Of a stretch of 64,000 nt of DNA, positions 1,956 to 46,055 are shown in pieces; the stretch's first letter is position 1, and every line of letters starts with the position of its first letter. Origin of the DNA: an uncultured Candidatus Saccharibacteria bacterium (GTDB taxonomy: Bacteria; Patescibacteriota; Minisyncoccia; Phycocordibacterales; PALSA-1337); NCBI GenBank assembly GCA_964412585.1, contig CAYPPJ010000001.1, positions 17,995-81,994 on the forward strand, given 5' to 3'. The translations under genes were made by a program, and so were the position numbers. The notes beneath the pieces were generated by a model that saw only the letters and a list, made by a program, of their open reading frames with translations, ran no database searches and was not told the origin of the DNA.

Positions 1956-2443
1956 TGTATAACTCTCTTATCCAGTCAATACTAACCCTCACCAAACACA
2001 TGACCCCTAAAATTACCCTGAAAGAGGTTGCTCCCATTGTTGTACGCATTGCTATGTCACTCGTATTCCTTTGGTTTGGATCACAGCAGCTGATGAATAC
2101 CTCCGCATGGCTCAGTTTTGTACCTGATGTTGCTCTGAGCATATCAGGATTGAGTGCGGTCGCACTTGTTCACTTCAACGGCGCATTTGAGATTGTCTTT
2201 GGCCTCTGTCTTCTTGGTGGTTTCTTCACTCGAACTTCCGCGCTGCTTCTCGGTCTGCATCTCTTGAGTATTAGCCTGAGCCTTGGTGCCAGCGCTATCG
2301 CAATACGAGACTACGGCCTCGCATTGGCAACCTTGTCGGTTTTTCTGTACGGTATGGACCGCCTCTGTCTCGATACACGTTTTTACAGTAAGAAACTATC
2401 AACATCTACTCCACCTCTGTCTCGATACACGTTTTTACAGTAA
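1955..2443 (+). CDS. DoxX-family membrane protein; its C-terminus is altered by a 52-bp tandem duplication
   Basis: Four predicted TM helices with DoxX-like spacing. The stop codon lies inside the second copy of the 52-bp repeat. Confidence 0.55.
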   Translation: MYNSLIQSILTLTKHMTPKITLKEVAPIVVRIAMSLVFLWFGSQQLMNTSAWLSFVPDVALSISGLSAVALVHFNGAFEIVFGLCLLGGFFTRTSALLLGLHLLSISLSLGASAIAIRDYGLALATLSVFLYGMDRLCLDTRFYSKKLSTSTPPLSRYTFLQ

Positions 2444-2465
2444 GAAACTATCAACATCTACTCCA
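2362..2465. repeat. exact tandem duplication, 2 x 52 bp (cctctgtctcgatacacgtttttacagtaagaaactatcaacatctactcca)
   Basis: Copy 1 at 2362-2413 and copy 2 at 2414-2465 are identical. The period is not a multiple of 3, so copy 2 is read in a shifted frame. Confidence 0.9.
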
Positions 2466-5199: not shown

Positions 5200-6441
5200 A
5201 TGAAAAAAATCATACTCATTGCAGTGCTCTCACTCGTATTTGCTGGAGGATTCCAGGCAGTCAAAGCGAATGCGGCTCTCAACCTTTCTGGGTGGGCATG
5301 GACATCAACCATGGGCTGGTTGAGTTTCAATTCTTCAAACACCGGATCTGGAGCAAATTATGCAGTGAGTGCGGCTACCTCAACATTATCTCCGAATATC
5401 GCCTCATTGAGTGGATATGCGTGGGGTGCGGTAGATGACAATGGCAAACCGAGTGGTATTGGTTGGGTCAGTTTTAGTTCATCAAATACAGGGTGTCCAA
5501 CCACGGAGGCTTTATTCGATACACCTGCATCACAAGGAGGTGGTGCGAGTGGGGCTGAATTGCCAAGTGGAGTTTCGAATATTTGTACACCACGCGTTGA
5601 TTTGAGCACAGGAAAAGTTAGTGGATGGGCACGTGTCCTCAATATGGCAGCAGAAGATGCTACGGCTGGCTGGCTGCATCTTTCAGGTACCAATCATCAA
5701 ACGGGTGCAGGAGGAGTTTCGTACAATAAAAATACTGGAGCATTTTCAGGAAAAGCATGGGAGCCAAGCGCGATTGGGTGGCTCGATTTTGCAGCAAATA
5801 CATCAGTTCCGTATCCGCCAGTCGTTATTTGTGTCACTGGAACTCCTGGCTGTCCACCAGTAGGGGGTGGTACCTGTTCGATTGGTACTATTACGACTTC
5901 GGGCAATGATGTGATGATTCCGGTTCATTTTCCAACAAGCGGTTCGACCTGGTATATCTTGAACAGGGACGGTGTCGAAGTTGATCGTGGAAGATCTGAT
6001 GATGTGTTTACTGATCCAGGACTTGCACTCGTACCGGGGACATATACGTATCAAATAGTGTATAAGGGCCCACCGATTTCTGCGTGTGGCAATCCTGTTG
6101 TGTATACAGTTAATGGCCAACCACCGGTTGGAGGGCCTTTACAGCTCTATATCGGACCAAGTGTTTCTAGTGCCAATCAATCGTCATATACTACTCACCG
6201 AAATAGTCCGTTCACTTTGAAGTGGAGAAATGATTTGTTGGCTGATGGTTATTCATGTACTCCTTCGAGTTCAGGCTCATGGGGCGGTTGGGGTAGTGAT
6301 GCATCAGGAAATGCCGCCCTAAATTCAGGGGCAGTGAATCCAGGTACTTATTCATTTACAATTAGTTGTAACAAGGCTGCAAGTTTTATAAATGCGTCAG
6401 CCAATCTTATAGTTACGAGCTCGAGCCTTGAGGAGATATAA
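5200..6441 (+). CDS. secreted Gly/Ser/Thr-rich repeat protein (possible surface protein or adhesin)
   Basis: Signal peptide MKKIILIAVLSLVFAGGFQAVKA. Recurring motif SG(Y/K)AW....IGW(L/V)(S/D)F(S/N)SSNTG, about four copies. Confidence 0.5.
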   Translation: MKKIILIAVLSLVFAGGFQAVKANAALNLSGWAWTSTMGWLSFNSSNTGSGANYAVSAATSTLSPNIASLSGYAWGAVDDNGKPSGIGWVSFSSSNTGCPTTEALFDTPASQGGGASGAELPSGVSNICTPRVDLSTGKVSGWARVLNMAAEDATAGWLHLSGTNHQTGAGGVSYNKNTGAFSGKAWEPSAIGWLDFAANTSVPYPPVVICVTGTPGCPPVGGGTCSIGTITTSGNDVMIPVHFPTSGSTWYILNRDGVEVDRGRSDDVFTDPGLALVPGTYTYQIVYKGPPISACGNPVVYTVNGQPPVGGPLQLYIGPSVSSANQSSYTTHRNSPFTLKWRNDLLADGYSCTPSSSGSWGGWGSDASGNAALNSGAVNPGTYSFTISCNKAASFINASANLIVTSSSLEEI

Positions 6442-19114: not shown

Positions 19115-19133
19115 GTCTAACCTACTTCTATAC

Positions 19134-19163
19134 AAAAAACCGCTCAAGTTGGGCGGTTTTTTG
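19134..19163 (+). terminator. rho-independent terminator after rpoC
   Basis: Stem AAAACCGC / GCGGTTTT, then TTTT. Confidence 0.65.
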
Positions 19164-19210
19164 CCATATTTTTATATTCACGCAGTTATGTGATATGGTG
19201 GGGGCACAAT

Positions 19211-20032
19211 ATGAATACAGTCAGTGTATCTACACATACAGTTATCTATAAAAAACTGGGCGAAACACCACTCGAGGCTCTTGAGCGGTTTCGTGGTGAT
19301 CAGATCGCTCGCGCAAGACAGGCATCTACTACTGAGCAAAAAAGTGACCAAAAAGTAGTCACTTTTTGGCAGGATGTGCCCCTCACTTACGCCGGCCGGC
19401 TTGATCCAATGGCTGAAGGGTCATTACTTATTCTTATTGGGGATGAATGTAAAAATAAAGAAAAGTACCTTGGTCTCGACAAGGAATACGAGGTTGAAAT
19501 TGTCTTTGGTATTGAAACTGATACATACGATGCACTGGGAATATCGAGATTAGTTGAGGCAACCGGCCTGGATAACCAATCAGTTGGATTTGAGGCCGCT
19601 TCTATTTCGACTCAACTAAATTCATACGTTGGCCATTTTACACAATCCTACCCACCGTATTCATCCAAAACAGTGAATGGTGTCCAGCTTCACGAACTAG
19701 CGCGCACCGACTCATTACCGGAGGAAATGCCCACAAAAGAGGTAGAAATATACGACATTCAAGTATTATGTATTGGAACTATCAGCGCACCTGATTTACA
19801 TGATCGCATTACCAATACTATTGGACTGGTTAAGGGAGATTTCCGACAGGCTGAGATACTCGAGAAGTGGCACCAAAACCTCTCAGATAGTCGTATATTC
19901 AATACAGTGAGCATTCGTGTGAGATGTTCAAGTGGCACCTACATGCGCTCATTGGCACACAAGATAGGTCAAGATACTGGTCTCGGAGCTTTCGCGCTTT
20001 CGATACAGAGGACGAAGATACTCGGTCTGTGA
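19211..20032 (+). CDS. truB: tRNA pseudouridine synthase, TruB family
   Basis: YAGRLDPMAEGSLLILIGDECK...KEYEVEIVFGIETDTYDALG matches the TruB catalytic block including the catalytic Asp. An alternative GTG start is at 19190. Confidence 0.65.
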   Translation: MNTVSVSTHTVIYKKLGETPLEALERFRGDQIARARQASTTEQKSDQKVVTFWQDVPLTYAGRLDPMAEGSLLILIGDECKNKEKYLGLDKEYEVEIVFGIETDTYDALGISRLVEATGLDNQSVGFEAASISTQLNSYVGHFTQSYPPYSSKTVNGVQLHELARTDSLPEEMPTKEVEIYDIQVLCIGTISAPDLHDRITNTIGLVKGDFRQAEILEKWHQNLSDSRIFNTVSIRVRCSSGTYMRSLAHKIGQDTGLGAFALSIQRTKILGL

Positions 20033-20047
20033 TACTATAGAAACACG

Positions 20048-21022
20048 ATGCGAAAAATAATTATCAAAGAGGGACCACTTGTGTTCCTCCGAAATGTCCT
20101 ATCGATGGAAATCATCGCGGCCCTGTTCTTTTTCGGGCTCTCCTTTGCGGGCAATTATAGCGCTGCATACAGCAATTGGGGTTTGTCCAGATACGTTCGA
20201 TTTGATCTTTTTGAAATATATTTATTTTCGGCTTTTCAACTTGTTTACTTGGCTTTGCTCTTTCTTGATTGGTATTTCACTCACTACGAAATTAATGACA
20301 AAGAGATCATTCGTAAATCAGGTTTATTGTTCCGCCGGCGCAAATCAGTCAGTCTGGGAGATGTTGCATCGGTAGAGACATACCAATCGCCGATCAGTCG
20401 TCTGATGTCGCATGCCACTATCATCCTTGAGCATAGCAATGGGCGCATGACCAAGATCAAGAATGTGAGTGCCTTCGATGAATACGTGCACGTGATCAAG
20501 GGTATGGTTCAGAGTGCTTCAGGTCGTATCATGACTCGGGATCCGCGTGTTCTGTTGGAAAAAGGAGAAAGTGCCTATGTCGAGTTTAAAGAGACGATGC
20601 GCTATGATGCTCGCAAAGGGGAGATCAGTAAAGAATTGGAGAAGATGGTCCTAAAAACAATTGCTTCGTTTTTGAATGCCGATGGCGGTACATTGCTCAT
20701 CGGGGTAAATGATGAGGGTAAAGCTGTCGGACTTGCCAATGACTACAAAACGCTTACCAAGAAAAATCGTGATGGCTTTGAGAATCATTTGACCATGTTG
20801 GTCAAAACACAGATTGGTCTTGCGTTTGCAAAATACGTGAGTGTCGCGTTTGAGACGATAGAGGGCAATGATATCTGTGTGGTTTCAGTAAAGGAGGGAC
20901 ACAAGCCGGCCTATGTGATGAATGGTGACAAAAAAGAGGATTTCTTTGTGAGGGTAGGGAATTCGACACAACCTTTTTCGATGAGTGAGGCAGAGGAGTA
21001 TATAAAGACACATTGGAAGTAG
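20048..21022 (+). CDS. membrane-anchored fusion of a bacterial PH domain (bPH_2/YdbT-like) and an AlbA_2/Schlafen-type putative DNA-binding domain
   Basis: Two N-terminal TM helices; PH-like segment (EIIRKSGLLFRRRKSVSL..V); C-terminal ESAYVEFKETMRYD....ISKEL.K.IASFLNADGGTLLIGVNDEGKAVGL, the AlbA_2 hallmark. Confidence 0.5.
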   Translation: MRKIIIKEGPLVFLRNVLSMEIIAALFFFGLSFAGNYSAAYSNWGLSRYVRFDLFEIYLFSAFQLVYLALLFLDWYFTHYEINDKEIIRKSGLLFRRRKSVSLGDVASVETYQSPISRLMSHATIILEHSNGRMTKIKNVSAFDEYVHVIKGMVQSASGRIMTRDPRVLLEKGESAYVEFKETMRYDARKGEISKELEKMVLKTIASFLNADGGTLLIGVNDEGKAVGLANDYKTLTKKNRDGFENHLTMLVKTQIGLAFAKYVSVAFETIEGNDICVVSVKEGHKPAYVMNGDKKEDFFVRVGNSTQPFSMSEAEEYIKTHWK

Positions 21023-21303
21023 AAAACTTTATTTTGGGACATAAACACAAAAGCTCCCGAAGGAGCGTTGTGTTACCAGTTTGGATTCGTTATGAATCCT
21101 TGGGCCCAGGGGCCTGTCCCATGAGTTCCACCAGTCGAGATTAATCGACTACATAAGTTTAGTTCACTCATAAATAAAGTCAAGCATTTGTGGACCCATG
21201 GGGATTTGCCCCCCTATAGCCGATGGTAAGCCAACTATTGTCACTATGACTGGGTCCACGGGAAGGAATCGCCTTCCTTGTCATAGAAGATATCAAATCA
21301 AAC

Positions 21304-21342
21304 TGAAGAAACGCTGGAGAAATGATTAAGATTCGCTGGAGA
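21304..21342 (+). repeat. copy A of a 39-bp motif TGAAGAAACGCTGGAGAAATGAT(T/A)AAGATTCGCTGGAGA, with an internal direct repeat CGCTGGAGA 22 bp apart
   Basis: 38/39 identical to 46017-46055; the flanks are unrelated. Confidence 0.85.
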
Positions 21343-21369
21343 TGGATTTATGTGTTCAAATGTCGCGAC

Positions 21370-21397
21370 AAAAAACTCAAGATTAACTTGAGTTTTT
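21370..21397. terminator. perfect palindromic hairpin with an A-run on one side and a T-run on the other (bidirectional terminator)
   Basis: AAAAACTCAAG attaa CTTGAGTTTTT. A second hairpin with an 11-bp stem lies at 21411-21449. Confidence 0.55.
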
Positions 21398-21470
21398 ACT
21401 TCCAACCATTGTCGAACCTCCACAGTACAGCAGTAACGGGAGGTTCGACGGTAGTTATAAGTAGATACTT

Positions 21471-21872
21471 TTACTCATTAAATTTCCTTATCACATATAT
21501 CGCGATTACTGCTTGAGCGAGAAGTATGACGTAATTGAAGTATCTGAAGAATTCTGTAAATGATGATATTAAAGATATGGCCTCAGACGTGTGAAGCTCA
21601 GAGTAGATACCCAACGAAAGGCCAAACACATCAACAATAAGAATCAAGATTGGTACAACGTAAAGAATTTTTCCAACCCTGTTCTTTTTTAGTAATATGG
21701 CAATCATTACAATACTCCAGACAAGAAGGATGAAAAAAAGACCGTCTGATATCACTGAAAGGAGTTTCGCAAATGAACTACTAGATATGAAAAGTAACAA
21801 CGCGACTATAACCGTTTCAAGTAATACAAATTGATGATACAGCACTACATTACCGAATGATCTATTTGCCAT
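21471..21872 (-). CDS. hypothetical polytopic membrane protein (about 4 TM helices)
   Basis: Hydrophobic helices; no motif recognised. Confidence 0.45.
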   Translation of the reverse strand: MANRSFGNVVLYHQFVLLETVIVALLLFISSSSFAKLLSVISDGLFFILLVWSIVMIAILLKKNRVGKILYVVPILILIVDVFGLSLGIYSELHTSEAISLISSFTEFFRYFNYVILLAQAVIAIYVIRKFNE

Positions 21873-21895: not shown

Positions 21896-23689
21896 TTATT
21901 TCAAATCACTCCTACGTGACTTTGCACGATCCAATTCCGTCAAAAACTTCTTGCGCAGACGCACGTTTTTCGGGGTAATCTCGAGATATTCATCTTCACG
22001 CATCAGTTCGAGACCGCGTTCGATAGAGAGCTCAAATGGAGGAACGAGCATGAGTGCCTCATCTTTTCCTGAGGAGCGCATGTTACTCATAGCCTTGCCC
22101 TTGGTAGGGTTAACATCCATGTCATCACCTTTTGCGGTATCACCGACAACCATGCCTTCGTAGACTTCTACTGCTGGGCCAATAAAGAGGCGGCCACGAT
22201 CCTGGAGGTTCCAGAGTGAGAAACCAAGTGACTTGCCGGATGCCATAGATGTCATTGAGCCAGTCTCGCGCTTTTCAATCTCGCCAGCATATGGTTTGAA
22301 TCCGAGCACACGTGAAGACATGATACCTTCACCCTTGGTATCAATAATAAAGACGTTCTTGTAACCCAACAGACCGCGAGTTGGAATCTCAAGCACGATG
22401 CGAACTTGGTTGCCATGAGTAGTCATATTGGTCATGACACCCTTGCGCTTGCCTAGGGTTTCAATGATAGCTCCTGAATACTCCTGGGGACAATCAATGA
22501 TGGCTTCTTCAAAAGGTTCAAGTTTTTGACCATCCTCTTCCTTGAAAATAACCTTTGGCTGGGAAACCTGGAGCTCGAAGCCTTCGCGGCGCATGTTTTC
22601 GATAAGGATAGCAATGTGGAGTTCGCCACGGCCGAATACCGTAAAGAATTCATTTGAACTAAAATCAACTTTGAGTCCTACGTTTGTCTCAAGCTCGCGT
22701 TCGAGGCGCTCTCGAATCTGTCGTCCGGTGACGAACGTACCTTCACGTCCAGCAAATGGTGAGTTGTTGACCAAAAACTGAAGGGAAATAGTCGGCTCAT
22801 CTACCTTGATAGCTGGCAATGCGGCAGTCGCCTCGTTATCGGTAATAGTCTCACCAATATAAATATCAGGCATACCAGCAACAGTGATAATGTCACCAGA
22901 TTCTGCTTCTTTGACCTCGATACGCTTTTTACCGTCGAATGTGAACAGTTTGGTAATCTTACCAGTAAATGTTTTGCCGTTGATATCCTTTACCCACACG
23001 TTTTGACCATCACGGATAGTTCCACTATAAATACGGCAGACGGCGAGACGTCCAAGGAAGTTGTCATAGCCGAGGTTGAATACTTGTGCGGTAAGTGGGT
23101 CGCCGGCATTCTTTTTTGCATTTGCAGGAGGCACATGTTCTAGAATCATATCCAAAAGAGGTGTAAGATCCTTTGCTTCGTCAGTCAATTTCTTTTTTGC
23201 CACACCCTGGCGGCCAATAGCATAAATAGTAGGGAAGTCGAGTTGTGCGTCATTTGCGCCAAGTTCCATAAAGAGTTCGAGTACCTCGTCGTGAGCACGG
23301 GCTGGATTTGCGGCTGGCTTGTCGATCTTGTTGAGGACGAGGATCGGTTTGATGCCGAGTTCAAGTGACTTTTTCAAAACGAAACGAGTCTGGGGCATCG
23401 GACCTTCCTGCGCATCGACGACGAGAAGAACGGTGTCGATGGAACGAAGCACGCGCTCTACTTCTGATCCAAAATCAGCGTGACCTGGTGTGTCGACGAT
23501 GTTGATCTTGGTACCCTTGTAGGTAATAGAGGTGTTCTTGGCATAAATGGTAATACCGCGCTCCTGTTCGAGTGCGTTTGAGTCCATAGTACCTTCGTCG
23601 CCATGACCGCATTGGGTCATAATAGCGTCAGTAAGGGTGGTTTTGCCGTGGTCCACATGCGCGATAATGGCAATGTTTCGGATATCCAT
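21896..23689 (-). CDS. typA: translational GTPase TypA/BipA
   Basis: [22 protein letters not shown]-like domains; 597 aa. Confidence 0.9.
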
Positions 23690-23773
23690 AGGGGAAAGAT
23701 TAATAGGGAATGAGCTAACAGTTTACATTATTTGAACATTTTTGTCAAAATCTTGGTAAATAAAACGCCCAAC

Positions 23774-23803
23774 CAGTTGGTACCGGTTGGGTTGTTTGAG
23801 CCG
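23774..23803 (-). terminator. hairpin plus T-run downstream of the P-loop gene on the minus strand
   Basis: On the minus strand: CCCAACC..GGTTGGG, then CGTTTTATTT. Confidence 0.45.
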
Positions 23804-23824
23804 TGGCTCGGTGAGGATTGGGAT

Positions 23825-24631
23825 TTAGGATGGACGAGCGAACTGGCCTTGCATGGCGCCGGTGAACGGACTCACAGGGCTGACGCCAGCAAATTCAACA
23901 ACAACGTTATTTTGAGGCGGAGAAGCCGAATGAGCAAGGTGAGCCGCATGAGTGCCGTCGAGTTTGTGAATACGTTGACACGCGGGGTGTTCAGGATCGG
24001 TGCAACGATTCAAGAGGGCAGTAGTTACTTCTGGACCAAGCCCGGCAAATTCAATGATGGCTTTGATCTTTGTGGCCATTGTTTCCCCCCGCTTCAAGGG
24101 AAGACGTTTGATCCGTTTGCGGGTCACCAGATAATCAATGCCAGGTTGCGCGAGATCGTGGTGCATCTTGTAGGCCTTTTTTGTTTTTTCAGGCCCACCG
24201 TCGAGACGTGGAGGACGTTCGGCATCAGCTTTCAGCGCCTCCTCAAGACTACAATCAATCGTGACCAAACAGAGGTGCTCGAAGTTCTTGTACAGAAGTT
24301 CGCCTTGATGTTTGGAACGAGGTACGCCTCCCCAGAACGCCTTCAGAATCGGCTGACCGGGGTTCGTGTGAAACTGAATCTTCTGGACAGCCGCCTTCAT
24401 TACTGGCTTATCAGGCATGAGTTTGCGCTCTTTCTGATCTTCAGCAAGGGACGTAAACAGTTGGCCCAGTTTGGTGCCACGGGTCCGATGCCAAGCAATG
24501 ACAGCGCTCGTGTCCAGGATCAAGAATCGAGGATCACCTTGGAACACCAGTTCAAGAACCTCCAGAACAGTGGTCTTGCCTGCACCCACCGCAGCAGCAA
24601 TAGCCACTACCGGAGTATTTTGCTTCTTCAT
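23825..24631 (-). CDS. P-loop NTPase, kinase-like; compositionally atypical (GC-rich)
   Basis: Walker A VVAIAAAVGAGKTT. By eye GC is clearly higher than in neighbouring genes, and a long antisense shadow ORF covers it. Confidence 0.5.
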   Translation of the reverse strand: MKKQNTPVVAIAAAVGAGKTTVLEVLELVFQGDPRFLILDTSAVIAWHRTRGTKLGQLFTSLAEDQKERKLMPDKPVMKAAVQKIQFHTNPGQPILKAFWGGVPRSKHQGELLYKNFEHLCLVTIDCSLEEALKADAERPPRLDGGPEKTKKAYKMHHDLAQPGIDYLVTRKRIKRLPLKRGETMATKIKAIIEFAGLGPEVTTALLNRCTDPEHPACQRIHKLDGTHAAHLAHSASPPQNNVVVEFAGVSPVSPFTGAMQGQFARPS

Positions 24632-24728
24632 ACTTTTTTAGTCTCTTTTGTGTAGTTTGGTTGAGGCAATTCTCCCTAAATCCATAATTTTTCGAAAGAA
24701 CAGCCAGGCAACACTGTACCACATATCT

Positions 24729-46016: not shown

Positions 46017-46055
46017 TGAAGAAACGCTGGAGAAATGATAAAGATTCGCTGGAGA
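46017..46055 (+). repeat. copy B of the 39-bp motif (see 21304-21342), 56-94 nt upstream of the coiled-coil gene start on the other strand
   Basis: TGAAGAAACGCTGGAGAAATGATAAAGATTCGCTGGAGA. Confidence 0.85.

What the first reader, a model, noticed from the sequence alone, without database searches (positions are those of the whole stretch)
20048..21022. Membrane-tethered PH-domain / AlbA_2 (Schlafen-type) fusion protein
One 324-aa ORF combines two TM helices, a bacterial PH-like segment and a C-terminal ESAYVEFKET...GGTLLIGVNDEGKAVGL block. That block is characteristic of the AlbA_2 domain found in Schlafen and anti-phage proteins. I do not know this architecture (membrane anchor + PH + AlbA_2) as a described family. 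It sits between truB and a 450-bp structured non-coding stretch carrying the repeated 39-bp motif. This is my best candidate for an uncharacterised sensor or defence-like single-gene system in this window.
Basis: partly seen in the sequence, partly recalled or inferred. Interest (0 to 1): 0.55.

Follow-up and report, generated by a model that had tools for sequence, protein, structure and literature searches.

The report
Membrane-anchored Schlafen-like RNase, CPR bacteria
A 324-residue membrane protein of an ultra-small (Patescibacteria) bacterium joins a YdbS-like two-helix plus PH-domain membrane module to a Schlafen-type RNA-cutting domain with an intact active-site motif; the family is real, common in these bacteria, dispensable and unstudied, and is most likely a signal-gated switch that stops translation, but nothing here shows that it defends against phages.

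Summary
ORF 20048-21022 (+) encodes 324 aa with two hydrophobic helices, a bPH_2 domain (E=2e-10) and an SLFN_AlbA_2 domain (E=1e-19). The Schlafen catalytic motif Ex4ExK is intact and invariant (E174, E179, K181), as is D222. A pLDDT 87.6 model matches AlbA_2, SAMD9 and Schlafen nucleases and PH folds.

The architecture is not unique. Hundreds of ~324-aa orthologues exist, and every named one is from Patescibacteria (Paceibacteria-type).

In this clade the gene sits in a housekeeping slot: truB or pth upstream on the same strand, typA convergent downstream. Of 137 immediate neighbours, only two generic DEAD-box helicases matched any defence model, and no viral contig carries the full architecture.

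It is not a core gene either. Twenty related loci have truB facing typA with no copy. L151 is collinear with the window (TypA 93.5% identical) and lacks it. Where present it is under strong purifying selection (omega 0.02-0.06).

The closest AlbA_2 domains are C-terminal modules behind both defence domains (HsdR, GmrSD, TIR, STAND) and signalling domains (periplasmic SBP, REC, CBS).

The adjacent non-coding stretch is structured but is not conserved with the gene.

Best reading: a membrane-tethered, signal-gated tRNase. It is a new variant of the known prokaryotic Schlafen sensor-effector kind. A defence role is possible but unproven.

The parts
20048..21022 (+). Gene for the 324-aa 2TM-bPH_2-AlbA_2 protein (stop codon included)
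   Evidence: ORF list. Pfam domains. 667 homologues, the top 120 all with the same two Pfam domains.
20096..20152 (+). TM helix 1 (residues ~17-35), with the invariant intramembrane E21
   Evidence: Hydropathy. Helix 10-34 in the AF2 model. E21 is invariant in 64 orthologues.
20153..20203 (+). Short outside loop (residues ~36-52), the least conserved segment
   Evidence: Median 31% identity, against 64-72% for the other modules. Highest dN of the segments in 4 of the 5 pairs tested.
20204..20278 (+). TM helix 2 (residues ~53-77). Q64 is invariant in the 28 sequences of A1; W75 and Y76 are invariant in 64 orthologues.
   Evidence: Hydropathy. Helix 52-77 in the model. Invariant columns.
20279..20521 (+). 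Cytoplasmic bacterial PH domain (residues ~78-158). Together with the TM hairpin it forms a YdbS-like module.
   Evidence: Pfam bPH_2, E=2.2e-10. Seven strands plus a C-terminal helix in the model. Foldseek hits to PH domains, including the bacterial ones 3dcx and 3hsa. phrog_3707 'membrane-flanked domain'.
20567..21019 (+). Cytoplasmic Schlafen/AlbA_2 domain (residues 174-324)
   Evidence: Pfam PF04326, E=1.3e-19. Profile hits to SLFN14, SLFN11, SLFN13 and SLFN12. Foldseek hits to 3lmm, SAMD9 7ksp/9o0d and SLFN13 5yd0.
20567..20590 (+). Catalytic motif Ex4ExK (E174-S-A-Y-V-E179-F-K181)
   Evidence: Read directly from the sequence. Invariant in A1, A5 and 64 orthologues. Motif as defined in PMC13056530. 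E-D-K triad shown in CbCash, PMC13462974.
20711..20713 (+). D222 in the GVND block, candidate third catalytic acid
   Evidence: Aligns with the GVDD block of SLFN14. Invariant in A1 and at least 90% conserved in A5.
19190..20032 (+). truB (tRNA pseudouridine-55 synthase), 15 nt upstream on the same strand. Probably co-transcribed.
   Evidence: ORF. TruB_N in 28 of 137 neighbours. At position -1 on the same strand in 27 of 71 genome loci.
19133..19163 (+). Strong terminator-like hairpin after rpoC, which would separate rpoBC from the truB-gene unit
   Evidence: 14-bp stem followed by a T run.
21053..21066 (+). Short GC hairpin 31 nt after the stop codon; likely 3' end of the transcript
   Evidence: Terminator-like scan. 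The surrounding 36-39 nt are 92-94% conserved in L004 and L046.
21023..21470 (.). Structured non-coding spacer. Not a conserved partner of the gene.
   Evidence: z -6.5 and -7.2. No Rfam family. Absent or replaced in most relatives.
21896..23689 (-). typA/bipA, convergent. The most constant downstream landmark of the slot.
   Evidence: ORF. Within three genes downstream in 31 of 71 genome loci (directly adjacent in 13) and on the upstream side in 3 more.

Best explanation
The gene encodes a single-polypeptide, membrane-tethered, signal-gated ribonuclease.

Anatomy. Residues 1-160 are a YdbS-like module: an N-in/C-in hairpin of two transmembrane helices followed by a cytoplasmic bacterial PH domain. 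Residues 173-324 are a prokaryotic Schlafen (AlbA_2) nuclease with an intact Ex4ExK...D active site.

Inferred mechanism. At rest, the membrane module holds the nuclease domains in an inactive oligomeric arrangement. A change sensed in or at the membrane rearranges the oligomer. Candidate signals are envelope or membrane perturbation, phage entry or lysis functions, peptide attack, or cell-contact signals. After rearrangement, two AlbA_2 domains form the open Schlafen clamp and cut tRNA (or another stable RNA). Translation stops and growth arrests.

Status in the genome. The gene is a dispensable accessory gene of Paceibacteria-type Patescibacteria. It is ancestral to a truB/pth-[gene]-typA slot and has been lost repeatedly.

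Shown here: architecture, topology, folds, conservation of the catalytic motif, distribution, context, and dispensability.
Inferred: RNase activity, tRNA as substrate, gating through oligomerisation, and the trigger. I put phage infection as the trigger at roughly 0.3 and a non-phage envelope or host-contact stress at a similar level.
For: Domains and topology.

Catalytic motif: Ex4ExK is invariant in 28, 64 and 95 sequences. It matches the motif essential for tRNA cleavage in SLFN11 and conserved in 5,930 prokaryotic Schlafens (PMC13056530). It also matches the E-D-K triad with Mg2+ in CbCash (PMC13462974). D222 aligns with the GVDD block of SLFN14.

Homology and fold: profile hits to SLFN14 (8e-7), SLFN11 (4.5e-6) and SLFN13 (3e-5) across the active-site region. 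The pLDDT 87.6 model hits 3lmm, the SAMD9 DNA-binding/tRNase domain and SLFN13/14/5/11, as well as PH folds.

Modularity: the nearest AlbA_2 domains (41-53% identical) are always C-terminal, behind varied N-terminal modules. These include periplasmic SBP_bac_3 plus a TM helix, REC, CBS, HsdR, GmrSD_N, TIR, BrxL and STAND. That is the pattern of an output/effector domain under sensor control.

The membrane hairpin is the constant partner: 2TM-AlbA_2 variants without the PH domain exist. E21 in TM1 is invariant in 64 orthologues and Q64 in TM2 is invariant in the 28-sequence alignment A1.

Precedent for gating by oligomeric state: Cash switches from an inactive dodecamer to an active filament. 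PHb domains form oligomeric rings (PMC2817789, abstract seen).

No conserved partner gene, so it is a single-gene system.

Strong purifying selection on all three modules: omega 0.016-0.058, and 64-72% identity per module.

Dispensable: 20 empty truB|typA slots, and the collinear loci L151 and L093 lack the gene.
Against: - No biochemical or expression data. RNase activity and substrate rest on homology alone.
- Some Schlafens with partly conserved motifs bind nucleic acid without cutting it.
- The structure prediction is a monomer with pTM 0.57, so neither the inter-domain arrangement nor the oligomer was tested.
- No trigger can be inferred from sequence.
- The outside loop is only about 16 residues, which is too small for a conventional ligand-binding sensor.
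- Housekeeping neighbours and tight placement behind truB or pth could instead point to a constitutive RNA-processing role.
Confidence: 0.5

Rival explanations
1. Dedicated single-gene anti-phage (abortive-infection) system. The membrane module detects phage entry or lysis proteins, and the Schlafen domain then destroys tRNA.
For: Prokaryotic Schlafen fusions protect E. coli from phages by cutting tRNA (PMC13056530). Cash acts in type III CRISPR immunity. The nearest AlbA_2 relatives are fused to HsdR, GmrSD_N, TIR, BrxL-Lon and STAND modules. The gene varies in presence among close relatives at the same locus. Its divergence fits only loosely with TypA (Spearman 0.40). Its synonymous divergence exceeds that of both flanks in several pairs. 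The outside loop is the most variable part.
Against: Among 137 immediate neighbours the only PADLOC hits are two generic DEAD-box helicases. No integrase or island features are present. The slot is flanked by truB/pth and typA. No PADLOC model fits beyond a weak match to the N-terminus of a pAgo model. No full-length copy occurs in viral contigs. Length and sequence are unusually uniform for a phage sensor: 324 aa, omega 0.02-0.06. The same AlbA_2 subfamily also sits behind ordinary signalling domains (SBP_bac_3, REC, CBS). The 'no defence neighbours' argument is weak in its own right, because tiny CPR genomes have few defence islands.
Confidence: 0.3
2. Constitutive housekeeping RNA-processing or turnover enzyme. 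It would be a membrane-anchored RNase, analogous in placement to RNase Y or RNase E, working with tRNA enzymes encoded upstream (TruB, Pth).
For: It lies directly behind truB (27 of 71 genome loci; 2 more with truB directly after it) or pth (7 of 71), with gaps of 4-70 nt, next to hisS and typA. Purifying selection is strong, and the protein is more conserved than TruB in 26 of 26 genomes.
Against: The gene is absent from the same slot in 20 related loci with no remnant, including loci collinear with the window at 93.5% TypA identity. Only 11 of 36 TypA-anchored loci with 8 kb of room carry it. Distant members lie in unrelated contexts. The truB|typA pair exists without it, so adjacency to truB reflects the slot and not a conserved pairing.
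Confidence: 0.1
3. Non-catalytic membrane tether for nucleic acid. The AlbA_2 domain only binds DNA or RNA, for example to hold RNA or incoming DNA at the membrane, or to act as a membrane-bound regulator.
For: Sources name homologues 'putative DNA binding domain-containing protein' or 'RNA-binding domain-containing protein'. The best fold matches include the SAMD9 DNA-binding domain with DNA (7ksp) and the N-terminal domain of a regulator-like protein (3lmm, 2kyy). Type IV pilus genes lie a few kb away.
Against: Invariance of every catalytic residue (E174, E179, K181, plus D222) across sequences down to 28% identity is not required for mere binding. No HTH or other regulator output domain is present.
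Confidence: 0.07
4. YdbS/DdE-like membrane protein for peptide (bacteriocin) export or immunity, with the AlbA_2 domain as an accessory.
For: The N-terminal 160 residues have the YdbS layout of 2 TM helices plus one PHb2 domain. YdbS/YdbT-like pairs are needed for export of leaderless bacteriocins (PMC8657885).
Against: No YdbT-like partner, bacteriocin gene or ABC transporter is conserved next to it. Variants without the PH domain keep the TM hairpin and AlbA_2.
Confidence: 0.03

Closest known systems
Prokaryotic Schlafen nucleases (pSlfn; e.g. RorSlfn5 Ig-like-Slfn, EcoSlfn7 DUF262-Slfn; Nat Microbiol 2026, PMC13056530)
   Same: PF04326 domain with the Ex4(E/D)xK motif. It is fused in one polypeptide to a non-nuclease module presumed to be the sensor. 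No partner gene is needed.
   Different: The fused module here is a membrane-embedded YdbS-like 2TM-bPH_2 unit. The paper's main text contains none of the words 'membrane', 'transmembrane', 'pleckstrin' or 'bPH', and its supplementary table of 55 architectures could not be read. The gene is not in a defence neighbourhood. The host range is Patescibacteria, not Enterobacterales. Defence and tRNA cleavage are untested.
CRISPR-associated Schlafen (Cash, CbCash; PMC13462974)
   Same: A small (~33 kDa) protein with one Schlafen domain plus one regulatory domain. E-(D/E)-K triad. Activity is controlled by a change of oligomeric state.
   Different: Cash has a Csx15 cA4-binding domain and is soluble and CRISPR-linked. 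Here there is no Csx15, no CRISPR genes nearby, and the protein is anchored in the membrane.
YdbS / DdE (COG3402; 2 TM + PHb2) of Firmicutes
   Same: The N-terminal 160 residues have the same layout and pass the bPH_2 model.
   Different: YdbS and DdE end after the PH domain and work with a YdbT/DdF partner. Here there is no partner, and a C-terminal nuclease domain is added.
Mammalian SLFN11/12/13/14 and SAMD9/9L tRNases; bacterial Avs9
   Same: Homologous nuclease fold and acidic active site. The inferred outcome, translation arrest through tRNA cleavage, is the same.
   Different: Mammalian Schlafens have two AlbA_2-like lobes in one chain plus helicase domains. SAMD9 and Avs9 are STAND NTPases. 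This protein has a single lobe, so it must oligomerise, and its regulator is a membrane module.
SBP_bac_3-TM-AlbA_2 receptors
   Same: The same AlbA_2 subfamily (about 40-45% identical), as a cytoplasmic C-terminal domain behind a membrane span.
   Different: Those have a periplasmic solute-binding domain as an obvious ligand sensor and a single TM helix. Here the outside loop is about 16 residues and the regulator is cytoplasmic/intramembrane.

Membership tests
Pfam PF04326 SLFN_AlbA_2 / prokaryotic Schlafen nucleases | Match to the family HMM above the gathering score | tested here: met
   71.3 bits against a cut-off of 25.3; residues 174-310 cover model positions 1-117 of 118.
Pfam PF04326 SLFN_AlbA_2 / prokaryotic Schlafen nucleases | Catalytic Ex4(E/D)xK motif | tested here: met
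   E174-x4-E179-x-K181, read from the sequence. Invariant in all alignments. Motif definition from PMC13056530.
Pfam PF04326 SLFN_AlbA_2 / prokaryotic Schlafen nucleases | Further acidic active-site residue in the G-V-x-D block | tested here: met
   D222 aligns with the GVDD block of SLFN14 in the HMMER alignment. It is invariant in A1 and at least 90% conserved in A5. Side-chain geometry in the model was not inspected.
Pfam PF04326 SLFN_AlbA_2 / prokaryotic Schlafen nucleases | Schlafen/AlbA_2 fold | tested here: met
   The pLDDT 87.6 model hits 3lmm (1.9e-6), SAMD9 7ksp (1.7e-5), 9o0d, SLFN13 5yd0 (1.9e-4), SLFN14, SLFN5 and SLFN11.
Pfam PF04326 SLFN_AlbA_2 / prokaryotic Schlafen nucleases | Mg2+-dependent cleavage of tRNA | not testable with these tools
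   Needs biochemistry.
Anti-phage pSlfn defence systems | Co-localisation with known defence genes (69.6% of pSlfn lie within 10 kb of one, PMC13056530) | tested here: not met
   PADLOC scan of 137 immediate neighbours from 71 genome loci found only two generic DEAD-box helicases. Pfam shows TruB, TypA, Pth and Ddl. Only the -1 and +1 genes were scanned, not the full 10 kb.
Anti-phage pSlfn defence systems | Protection against phage infection | not testable with these tools
   Needs phage challenge. No cultivated host.
Pfam PF03703 bPH_2 / YdbS-like (COG3402) | Match to the bPH_2 HMM above the gathering score | tested here: met
   41.1 bits against a cut-off of 22; residues 75-134. JGI names homologues 'membrane protein YdbS with pleckstrin-like domain'.
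Pfam PF03703 bPH_2 / YdbS-like (COG3402) | Two TM helices directly before the PH domain | tested here: met
   Hydropathy and the positive-inside rule. Helices 10-34 and 52-77 in the model. YdbS layout as described in PMC8657885.
Pfam PF03703 bPH_2 / YdbS-like (COG3402) | PH fold | tested here: met
   Foldseek hits to Rtt106 and GRK2 PH domains and to the bacterial PH domains 3dcx and 3hsa, at rmsd 2.6-4 A over 80-90 residues.
Pfam PF03703 bPH_2 / YdbS-like (COG3402) | Adjacent YdbT-like partner gene | tested here: not met
   bPH_2 is not among the 25 most frequent Pfam families of the 137 neighbours. No conserved partner cluster was found.
Cash (Csx15-Schlafen) and SLFN-pAgo | Csx15 domain with a type III CRISPR context, or an Ago core plus GHKL ATPase | tested here: not met
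   Only bPH_2 and AlbA_2 were found. The PADLOC pAgo hit covers just the N-terminal Schlafen part of that model, at E=8.5e-4. No cas genes among the neighbours.

The most novel reading that the evidence does not exclude
The nuclease reads the modification state of the tRNA T-loop. It is co-transcribed with truB, whose product converts U55 to pseudouridine. A characterised prokaryotic Schlafen (CbCash) cuts immediately 5' of U55 and needs that uridine. This membrane-tethered Schlafen would then cut only tRNAs lacking Psi55 (foreign, phage-encoded or immature), with TruB acting as the self-protecting partner. That would be a modification-based self/non-self check on tRNA in ultra-small bacteria.
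Probability: 0.05. Interest if true: 0.8.

Novelty: new variant of a known kind. Interest (0 to 1): 0.42.

Why it matters
Schlafen nucleases have only recently been shown to be conserved tRNA-cutting immune effectors from bacteria to humans, always under the control of a fused or associated sensor. In what I could read, all characterised prokaryotic examples are soluble.

This family would add a membrane-embedded regulator, a YdbS-like hairpin plus bacterial PH domain whose own function is still unknown. It would also place a Schlafen effector in Patescibacteria, organisms with minimal genomes, few recognised defence or stress systems, and a lifestyle centred on the cell surface.

The family is small, uniform, abundant in metagenomes and a single gene, so it is a convenient model for two questions. 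What do bacterial PH (bPH_2) modules sense or transmit? How is a single-lobe Schlafen domain switched on?

If it proves to be only another pSlfn architecture with an unknown trigger, the gain is modest.

Tried and rejected
1. 'Core housekeeping gene'. I first favoured this, because of conserved synteny with truB/typA and higher conservation than TruB. I rejected it after the reverse survey anchored on TypA: 11 of 36 loci carry the gene, 20 truB|typA slots are empty with no remnants, and L151 and L093 are collinear but lack it.

2. 'The adjacent non-coding element is a partner'. Rejected.
- 13 genomes have typA directly after the gene.
- The 39-nt motif occurs only in this genome and in same-strain contigs.
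- The only well conserved piece, hairpin 21391-21469, lies at the 3' end of typA, including in L151, which lacks the gene.
- No Rfam family matches at gathering or permissive thresholds, and there is no tRNA or tmRNA.
- tblastx gave no sign of a decayed gene.

3. Weak sequence hit of profile A1 to phage T4 RegA (E=0.004). It disappeared with the deeper profile A5, so I treat it as chance.

4. NCBIfam: no model. PADLOC: only a marginal hit to the N-terminus of a pAgo model.

5. Viral contigs: only AlbA_2-only relatives were found.

6. The first structure model, from 28 close sequences, was poor (pLDDT 68). It was replaced by a 95-sequence model (pLDDT 87.6).

7. The AFDB Foldseek library was unavailable. 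The supplementary tables of the pSlfn papers are not held. I therefore could not check whether a bPH_2-Slfn class is among the 55 published architectures.

8. dN/dS: synonymous sites are saturated in most pairs, so only four pairs gave usable omega values.
Full report
**1. The observation**

The window has an ATG-to-TAG ORF at 20048-21022 on the + strand, encoding 324 residues. Its N-terminus (MRKIIIKEGP...) is conserved in orthologues, so the start is right.

Nineteen-residue hydropathy windows exceed 1.6 only around residues 19-26 and 63-68. Lys+Arg counts are 4 in the N-tail, 2 in the loop and 7 after the second helix. This gives an N-in/C-in hairpin that leaves the rest of the protein in the cytoplasm.

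Pfam finds bPH_2 (residues 75-134, 41.1 bits, cut-off 22) and SLFN_AlbA_2 (residues 174-310, 71.3 bits, cut-off 25.3). NCBIfam has no model. PADLOC gives only a marginal match to the N-terminal part of a pAgo model.

truB ends 15 nt upstream. A strong terminator-like hairpin (19133-19163) separates rpoC from truB.

The downstream 448 nt are non-coding and fold much better than shuffles on both strands (z -6.5 and -7.2). The 39-nt motif at 21304-21342 recurs at 46017-46055.

**2. The two domains**

The block ESAYVEFK is the Ex4ExK motif. That motif is essential for tRNA cleavage by SLFN11 and is conserved in 5,930 prokaryotic Schlafen domains (PMC13056530). The equivalent E-D-K triad binds Mg2+ at the scissile phosphate in CbCash (PMC13462974).

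E174, E179 and K181 are invariant in alignments of 28, 64 and 95 sequences, reaching down to 28% identity. D222, in GVND, aligns with the GVDD block of SLFN14 and is at least 90% conserved.

A profile of 95 family members hits the nuclease region of SLFN14 (8e-7), SLFN11 (4.5e-6), SLFN13 (3e-5) and SLFN12 (7e-5).

A model built from the first, shallow alignment was poor (pLDDT 68). With 95 sequences it reached pLDDT 87.6. Foldseek against the PDB returns:
- for the C-terminal half: the bacterial AlbA_2 protein 3lmm (1.9e-6), the SAMD9 nucleic-acid-binding/tRNase domain (7ksp, 9o0d), and SLFN13, SLFN14, SLFN5 and SLFN11;
- for residues ~78-158: PH domains, including the bacterial ones 3dcx and 3hsa.

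The N-terminal 160 residues thus have the YdbS layout of two TM helices plus one PHb2 domain (PMC8657885).

**3. How common it is**

The architecture is not unique.
- The 5.8-billion-protein search found 667 relatives. The best 120 are all ~324 aa, carry both Pfam domains, and are 64-100% identical.
- The exhaustive search of 50%-identity representatives found 6,667 hits, 320 of them below 1e-30. At least 60 of the best 150 are full-length proteins of the same architecture, down to 26% identity.
- Every source name attached to a full-length member of the protein searches points to Patescibacteria of the Parcubacteria/Paceibacteria type: Taylorbacteria, Harrisonbacteria, Nealsonbacteria, Paceibacterota.
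- A scan of one genome per GTDB species gave 76 loci, with the same affiliation apart from a few short, probably mis-binned contigs.

**4. Context seen from the gene**

In 71 genome loci the commonest arrangement is RNaseH-like exonuclease(-) hisS(-) | truB(+) gene(+) | variable small ORFs | typA(-).
- truB is the immediate upstream gene on the same strand in 27 loci and the immediate downstream gene in 2.
- In a sister group pth takes its place (7 loci).
- typA lies within three genes downstream in 31 loci (directly adjacent in 13) and on the upstream side in 3 more.

A PADLOC scan of the 137 immediate neighbours returned only two generic DEAD-box helicases.

More distant members lie next to lepA/prfA-like/murJ, yceG/ddl/uvrC/uvrA, or, in one case, a Bro-N protein and a RecD-like helicase.

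No full-length copy was found in viral contigs.

No gene is a constant partner, so this is a single-gene system. It does not sit in a recognisable defence island.

**5. Context seen from the neighbour**

Anchoring on TypA instead changes the picture.
- Eighty metagenome loci have TypA 70-94% identical to the window's. Only 11 of the 36 with 8 kb of room downstream carry the gene.
- Twenty loci have truB convergent on typA, with gaps of 23-2,491 nt, and neither the gene nor a remnant.
- L151 and L093 are collinear with the window: rpoB-rpoC-truB-[686 or 1,104 nt]-typA-pilB-pilC. In L151, RpoB is 92.5%, RpoC 89% and TypA 93.5% identical to the window's proteins. Both loci lack this gene and the small TM ORF.

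The gene occupies the same slot in both the truB-type and pth-type clades, so it is probably ancestral there and was lost repeatedly. It is dispensable, which rules out an essential housekeeping role. The one caveat is that relocation elsewhere in those genomes could not be checked.

**6. Evolutionary behaviour**

Where present, the protein is well conserved.
- Median identity to the window's protein is 68%, against 49% for TruB and 79% for TypA in the same 26 genomes. It is always above TruB and below TypA.
- All three modules are conserved (TM hairpin 64-67%, PH 70%, AlbA_2 72%). The outside loop (31%) and the linker (42%) are not.
- Where synonymous sites are not saturated, omega is 0.016-0.058. 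For comparison, TypA gives 0.006-0.03 and TruB 0.06-0.22.

Two features are less like a vertically inherited core gene.
- Pairwise identities correlate only moderately with those of TypA (Spearman 0.40, 52 loci).
- Synonymous divergence is higher than in both flanking genes in the three pairs where all three could be measured.

Both observations are limited by saturation and by the conservative nature of TypA.

**7. What the relatives say about function**

The AlbA_2 domain of this family belongs to a subfamily (41-53% identity) that is always at the C-terminus of proteins of 170-1,149 residues.

Of 60 such proteins, 9 have a periplasmic SBP_bac_3 domain, 3 GmrSD_N, 3 TIR, 2 CBS and 2 REC. Single cases have HsdR, BrxL-type Lon and STAND NTPases. 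P0346 is a textbook receptor: signal peptide, solute-binding domain, one TM helix, cytoplasmic AlbA_2.

The domain is therefore an output module placed under many kinds of sensor, some defence-related and some ordinary signalling.

Within Patescibacteria there are also ~240-aa variants that keep the homologous TM hairpin and AlbA_2 but lack the PH domain (P0338 from Yanofskybacteria, P0340, P0157). The membrane hairpin is thus the constant partner. It carries two conserved polar residues: E21, invariant in 64 orthologues, and Q64, invariant in the 28-sequence alignment A1.

**8. Mechanism**

Shown: a membrane hairpin, a cytoplasmic PH domain and a cytoplasmic Schlafen domain with a complete catalytic motif in one dispensable, strongly constrained protein with no partner gene.

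Inferred from established knowledge:
- A single AlbA_2 lobe must pair to form the RNA-binding clamp seen in SLFN11 dimers and Cash.
- Schlafen activity is controlled by oligomeric rearrangement, as in the switch of Cash from dodecamer to filament.
- Bacterial PH domains form oligomeric rings (PMC2817789, abstract).

I therefore propose that the YdbS-like module keeps the nuclease domains apart or occluded at the membrane. A membrane-level signal would release them to cut tRNA or another stable RNA and arrest translation.

The trigger is unknown. I give phage infection about 0.3 and a non-phage envelope or host-contact stress a similar weight.

**9. The non-coding stretch**

It is a run of short perfect hairpins and matches no Rfam family.
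- The first hairpin (21053-21066) follows the stop codon and is conserved in L004 and L046. It is probably the terminator of the gene.
- The last two hairpins (21371-21397 and 21391-21469) read as a 3' structure and terminator on the minus strand. The larger one is 90-94% conserved beside the typA 3' end in L004, L005, L007 and L011, and more loosely in L151, which lacks the gene.
- The 39-nt motif is confined to this genome.

The stretch is not a conserved partner of the gene.

**10. Comparison and novelty**

The protein passes every sequence and fold test for PF04326/pSlfn and for bPH_2/YdbS-like modules. It fails the context features of the characterised systems: no defence neighbourhood, no YdbT partner, no Csx15 or CRISPR, no Ago.

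It works like the pSlfn sensor-effector fusions, but its regulator is membrane-embedded. I found no such regulator in the main text of the pSlfn paper or in literature searches. The table of 55 published architectures could not be read.

I rate it a new variant of a known kind, of moderate interest.

Noticed in passing
window 21304-21342 and 46017-46055: A 39-nt motif (TGAAGAAACGCTGGAGAAATGATTAAGATTCGCTGGAGA) is present twice on the + strand, with one mismatch between the copies. Each copy holds two 15-nt direct half-sites (AAGAAACGCTGGAGA and AAGATTCGCTGGAGA) 22 nt apart. The core CGCTGGAGA occurs only at these four places in 64 kb. The motif is absent from all other fetched loci except the same-strain contigs L001 and L002. 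It looks like a paired protein-binding site or a small mobile repeat. The second copy lies between trpS and an 85-aa ORF.
   Followed up: partly
window 21371-21469 (minus strand reading): An 11-bp-stem hairpin (GTCGAACCTCC...GGAGGTTCGAC) is followed by an AT-rich terminator hairpin with a T run. It is 90-94% conserved over 54-70 nt in L004, L005, L007 and L011, beside the 3' end of typA. A looser copy (84% over 94 nt) sits in the same place in L151, which lacks the Schlafen gene. This is a conserved 3' element of the typA transcript, better conserved than neighbouring protein genes.
   Followed up: partly
window 21067-21300: A run of short perfect GC-rich hairpins (GGAUUC/GAAUCC, GGGCCC..., GUCGAG/AUCGAC, GGGGAUUUGCCCC, GGAAGGAAUCGCCUUCC) with no Rfam match. 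It is partly alignable (68%) to the spacer of L004, and a 74-nt piece is 82% identical in L046. Its function is unknown.
   Followed up: partly
window 21471-21872 (-): A 133-aa hydrophobic ORF lies between typA and the hairpins. It has no Pfam-independent homologue in any related locus (tblastn) and no PHROG hit. The truB-typA gap in relatives holds different small ORFs (60-430 aa), so this slot is a hotspot of gene turnover.
   Followed up: partly
window 19190-20032 (truB) vs L003/L004: TruB is only 58-61% identical in genomes whose TypA is 97% and RpoC 91% identical to the window's. Its omega (0.06-0.22) is the highest of the three genes compared. That is unusually fast evolution for a universal tRNA-modifying enzyme.
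   Followed up: partly
L003/L004, L021/L022, L008/L010 (gene vs flanks): Synonymous divergence of the Schlafen gene exceeds that of both truB and typA in the same genome pairs (for example dS 2.48 against 1.18 and 1.04). This could reflect older alleles exchanged by recombination, or codon-bias differences. Most pairs are saturated.
   Followed up: partly
P0338, P0340, P0157 (proteins); P0346, P0348: Two related architectures were seen. One is the ~240-aa 2TM-AlbA_2 proteins without the PH domain (Yanofskybacteria). The other is SBP_bac_3-TM-AlbA_2 proteins, which look like one-component transmembrane receptors with a Schlafen output domain.
   Followed up: partly
window 2359-2462: Two tandem copies of a 52-nt unit, 98% identical, with a degenerate third copy (62%) at 6141-6192.
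   Followed up: no
window 23732-24655 (+) and 23825-24631 (-): Two long ORFs overlap almost completely on opposite strands. The minus-strand one (268 aa) has a P-loop-like GAGKTT motif and is probably the real gene. A similar 307-aa cluster follows typA in several relatives.
   Followed up: no
L051 and L077: Contigs carrying family members are labelled Nitrospira sp. and Gammaproteobacteria in their records. They are short (5.7 and 20 kb), and all other named members are from Patescibacteria, so these are probably binning errors and not evidence of wider distribution.
   Followed up: no
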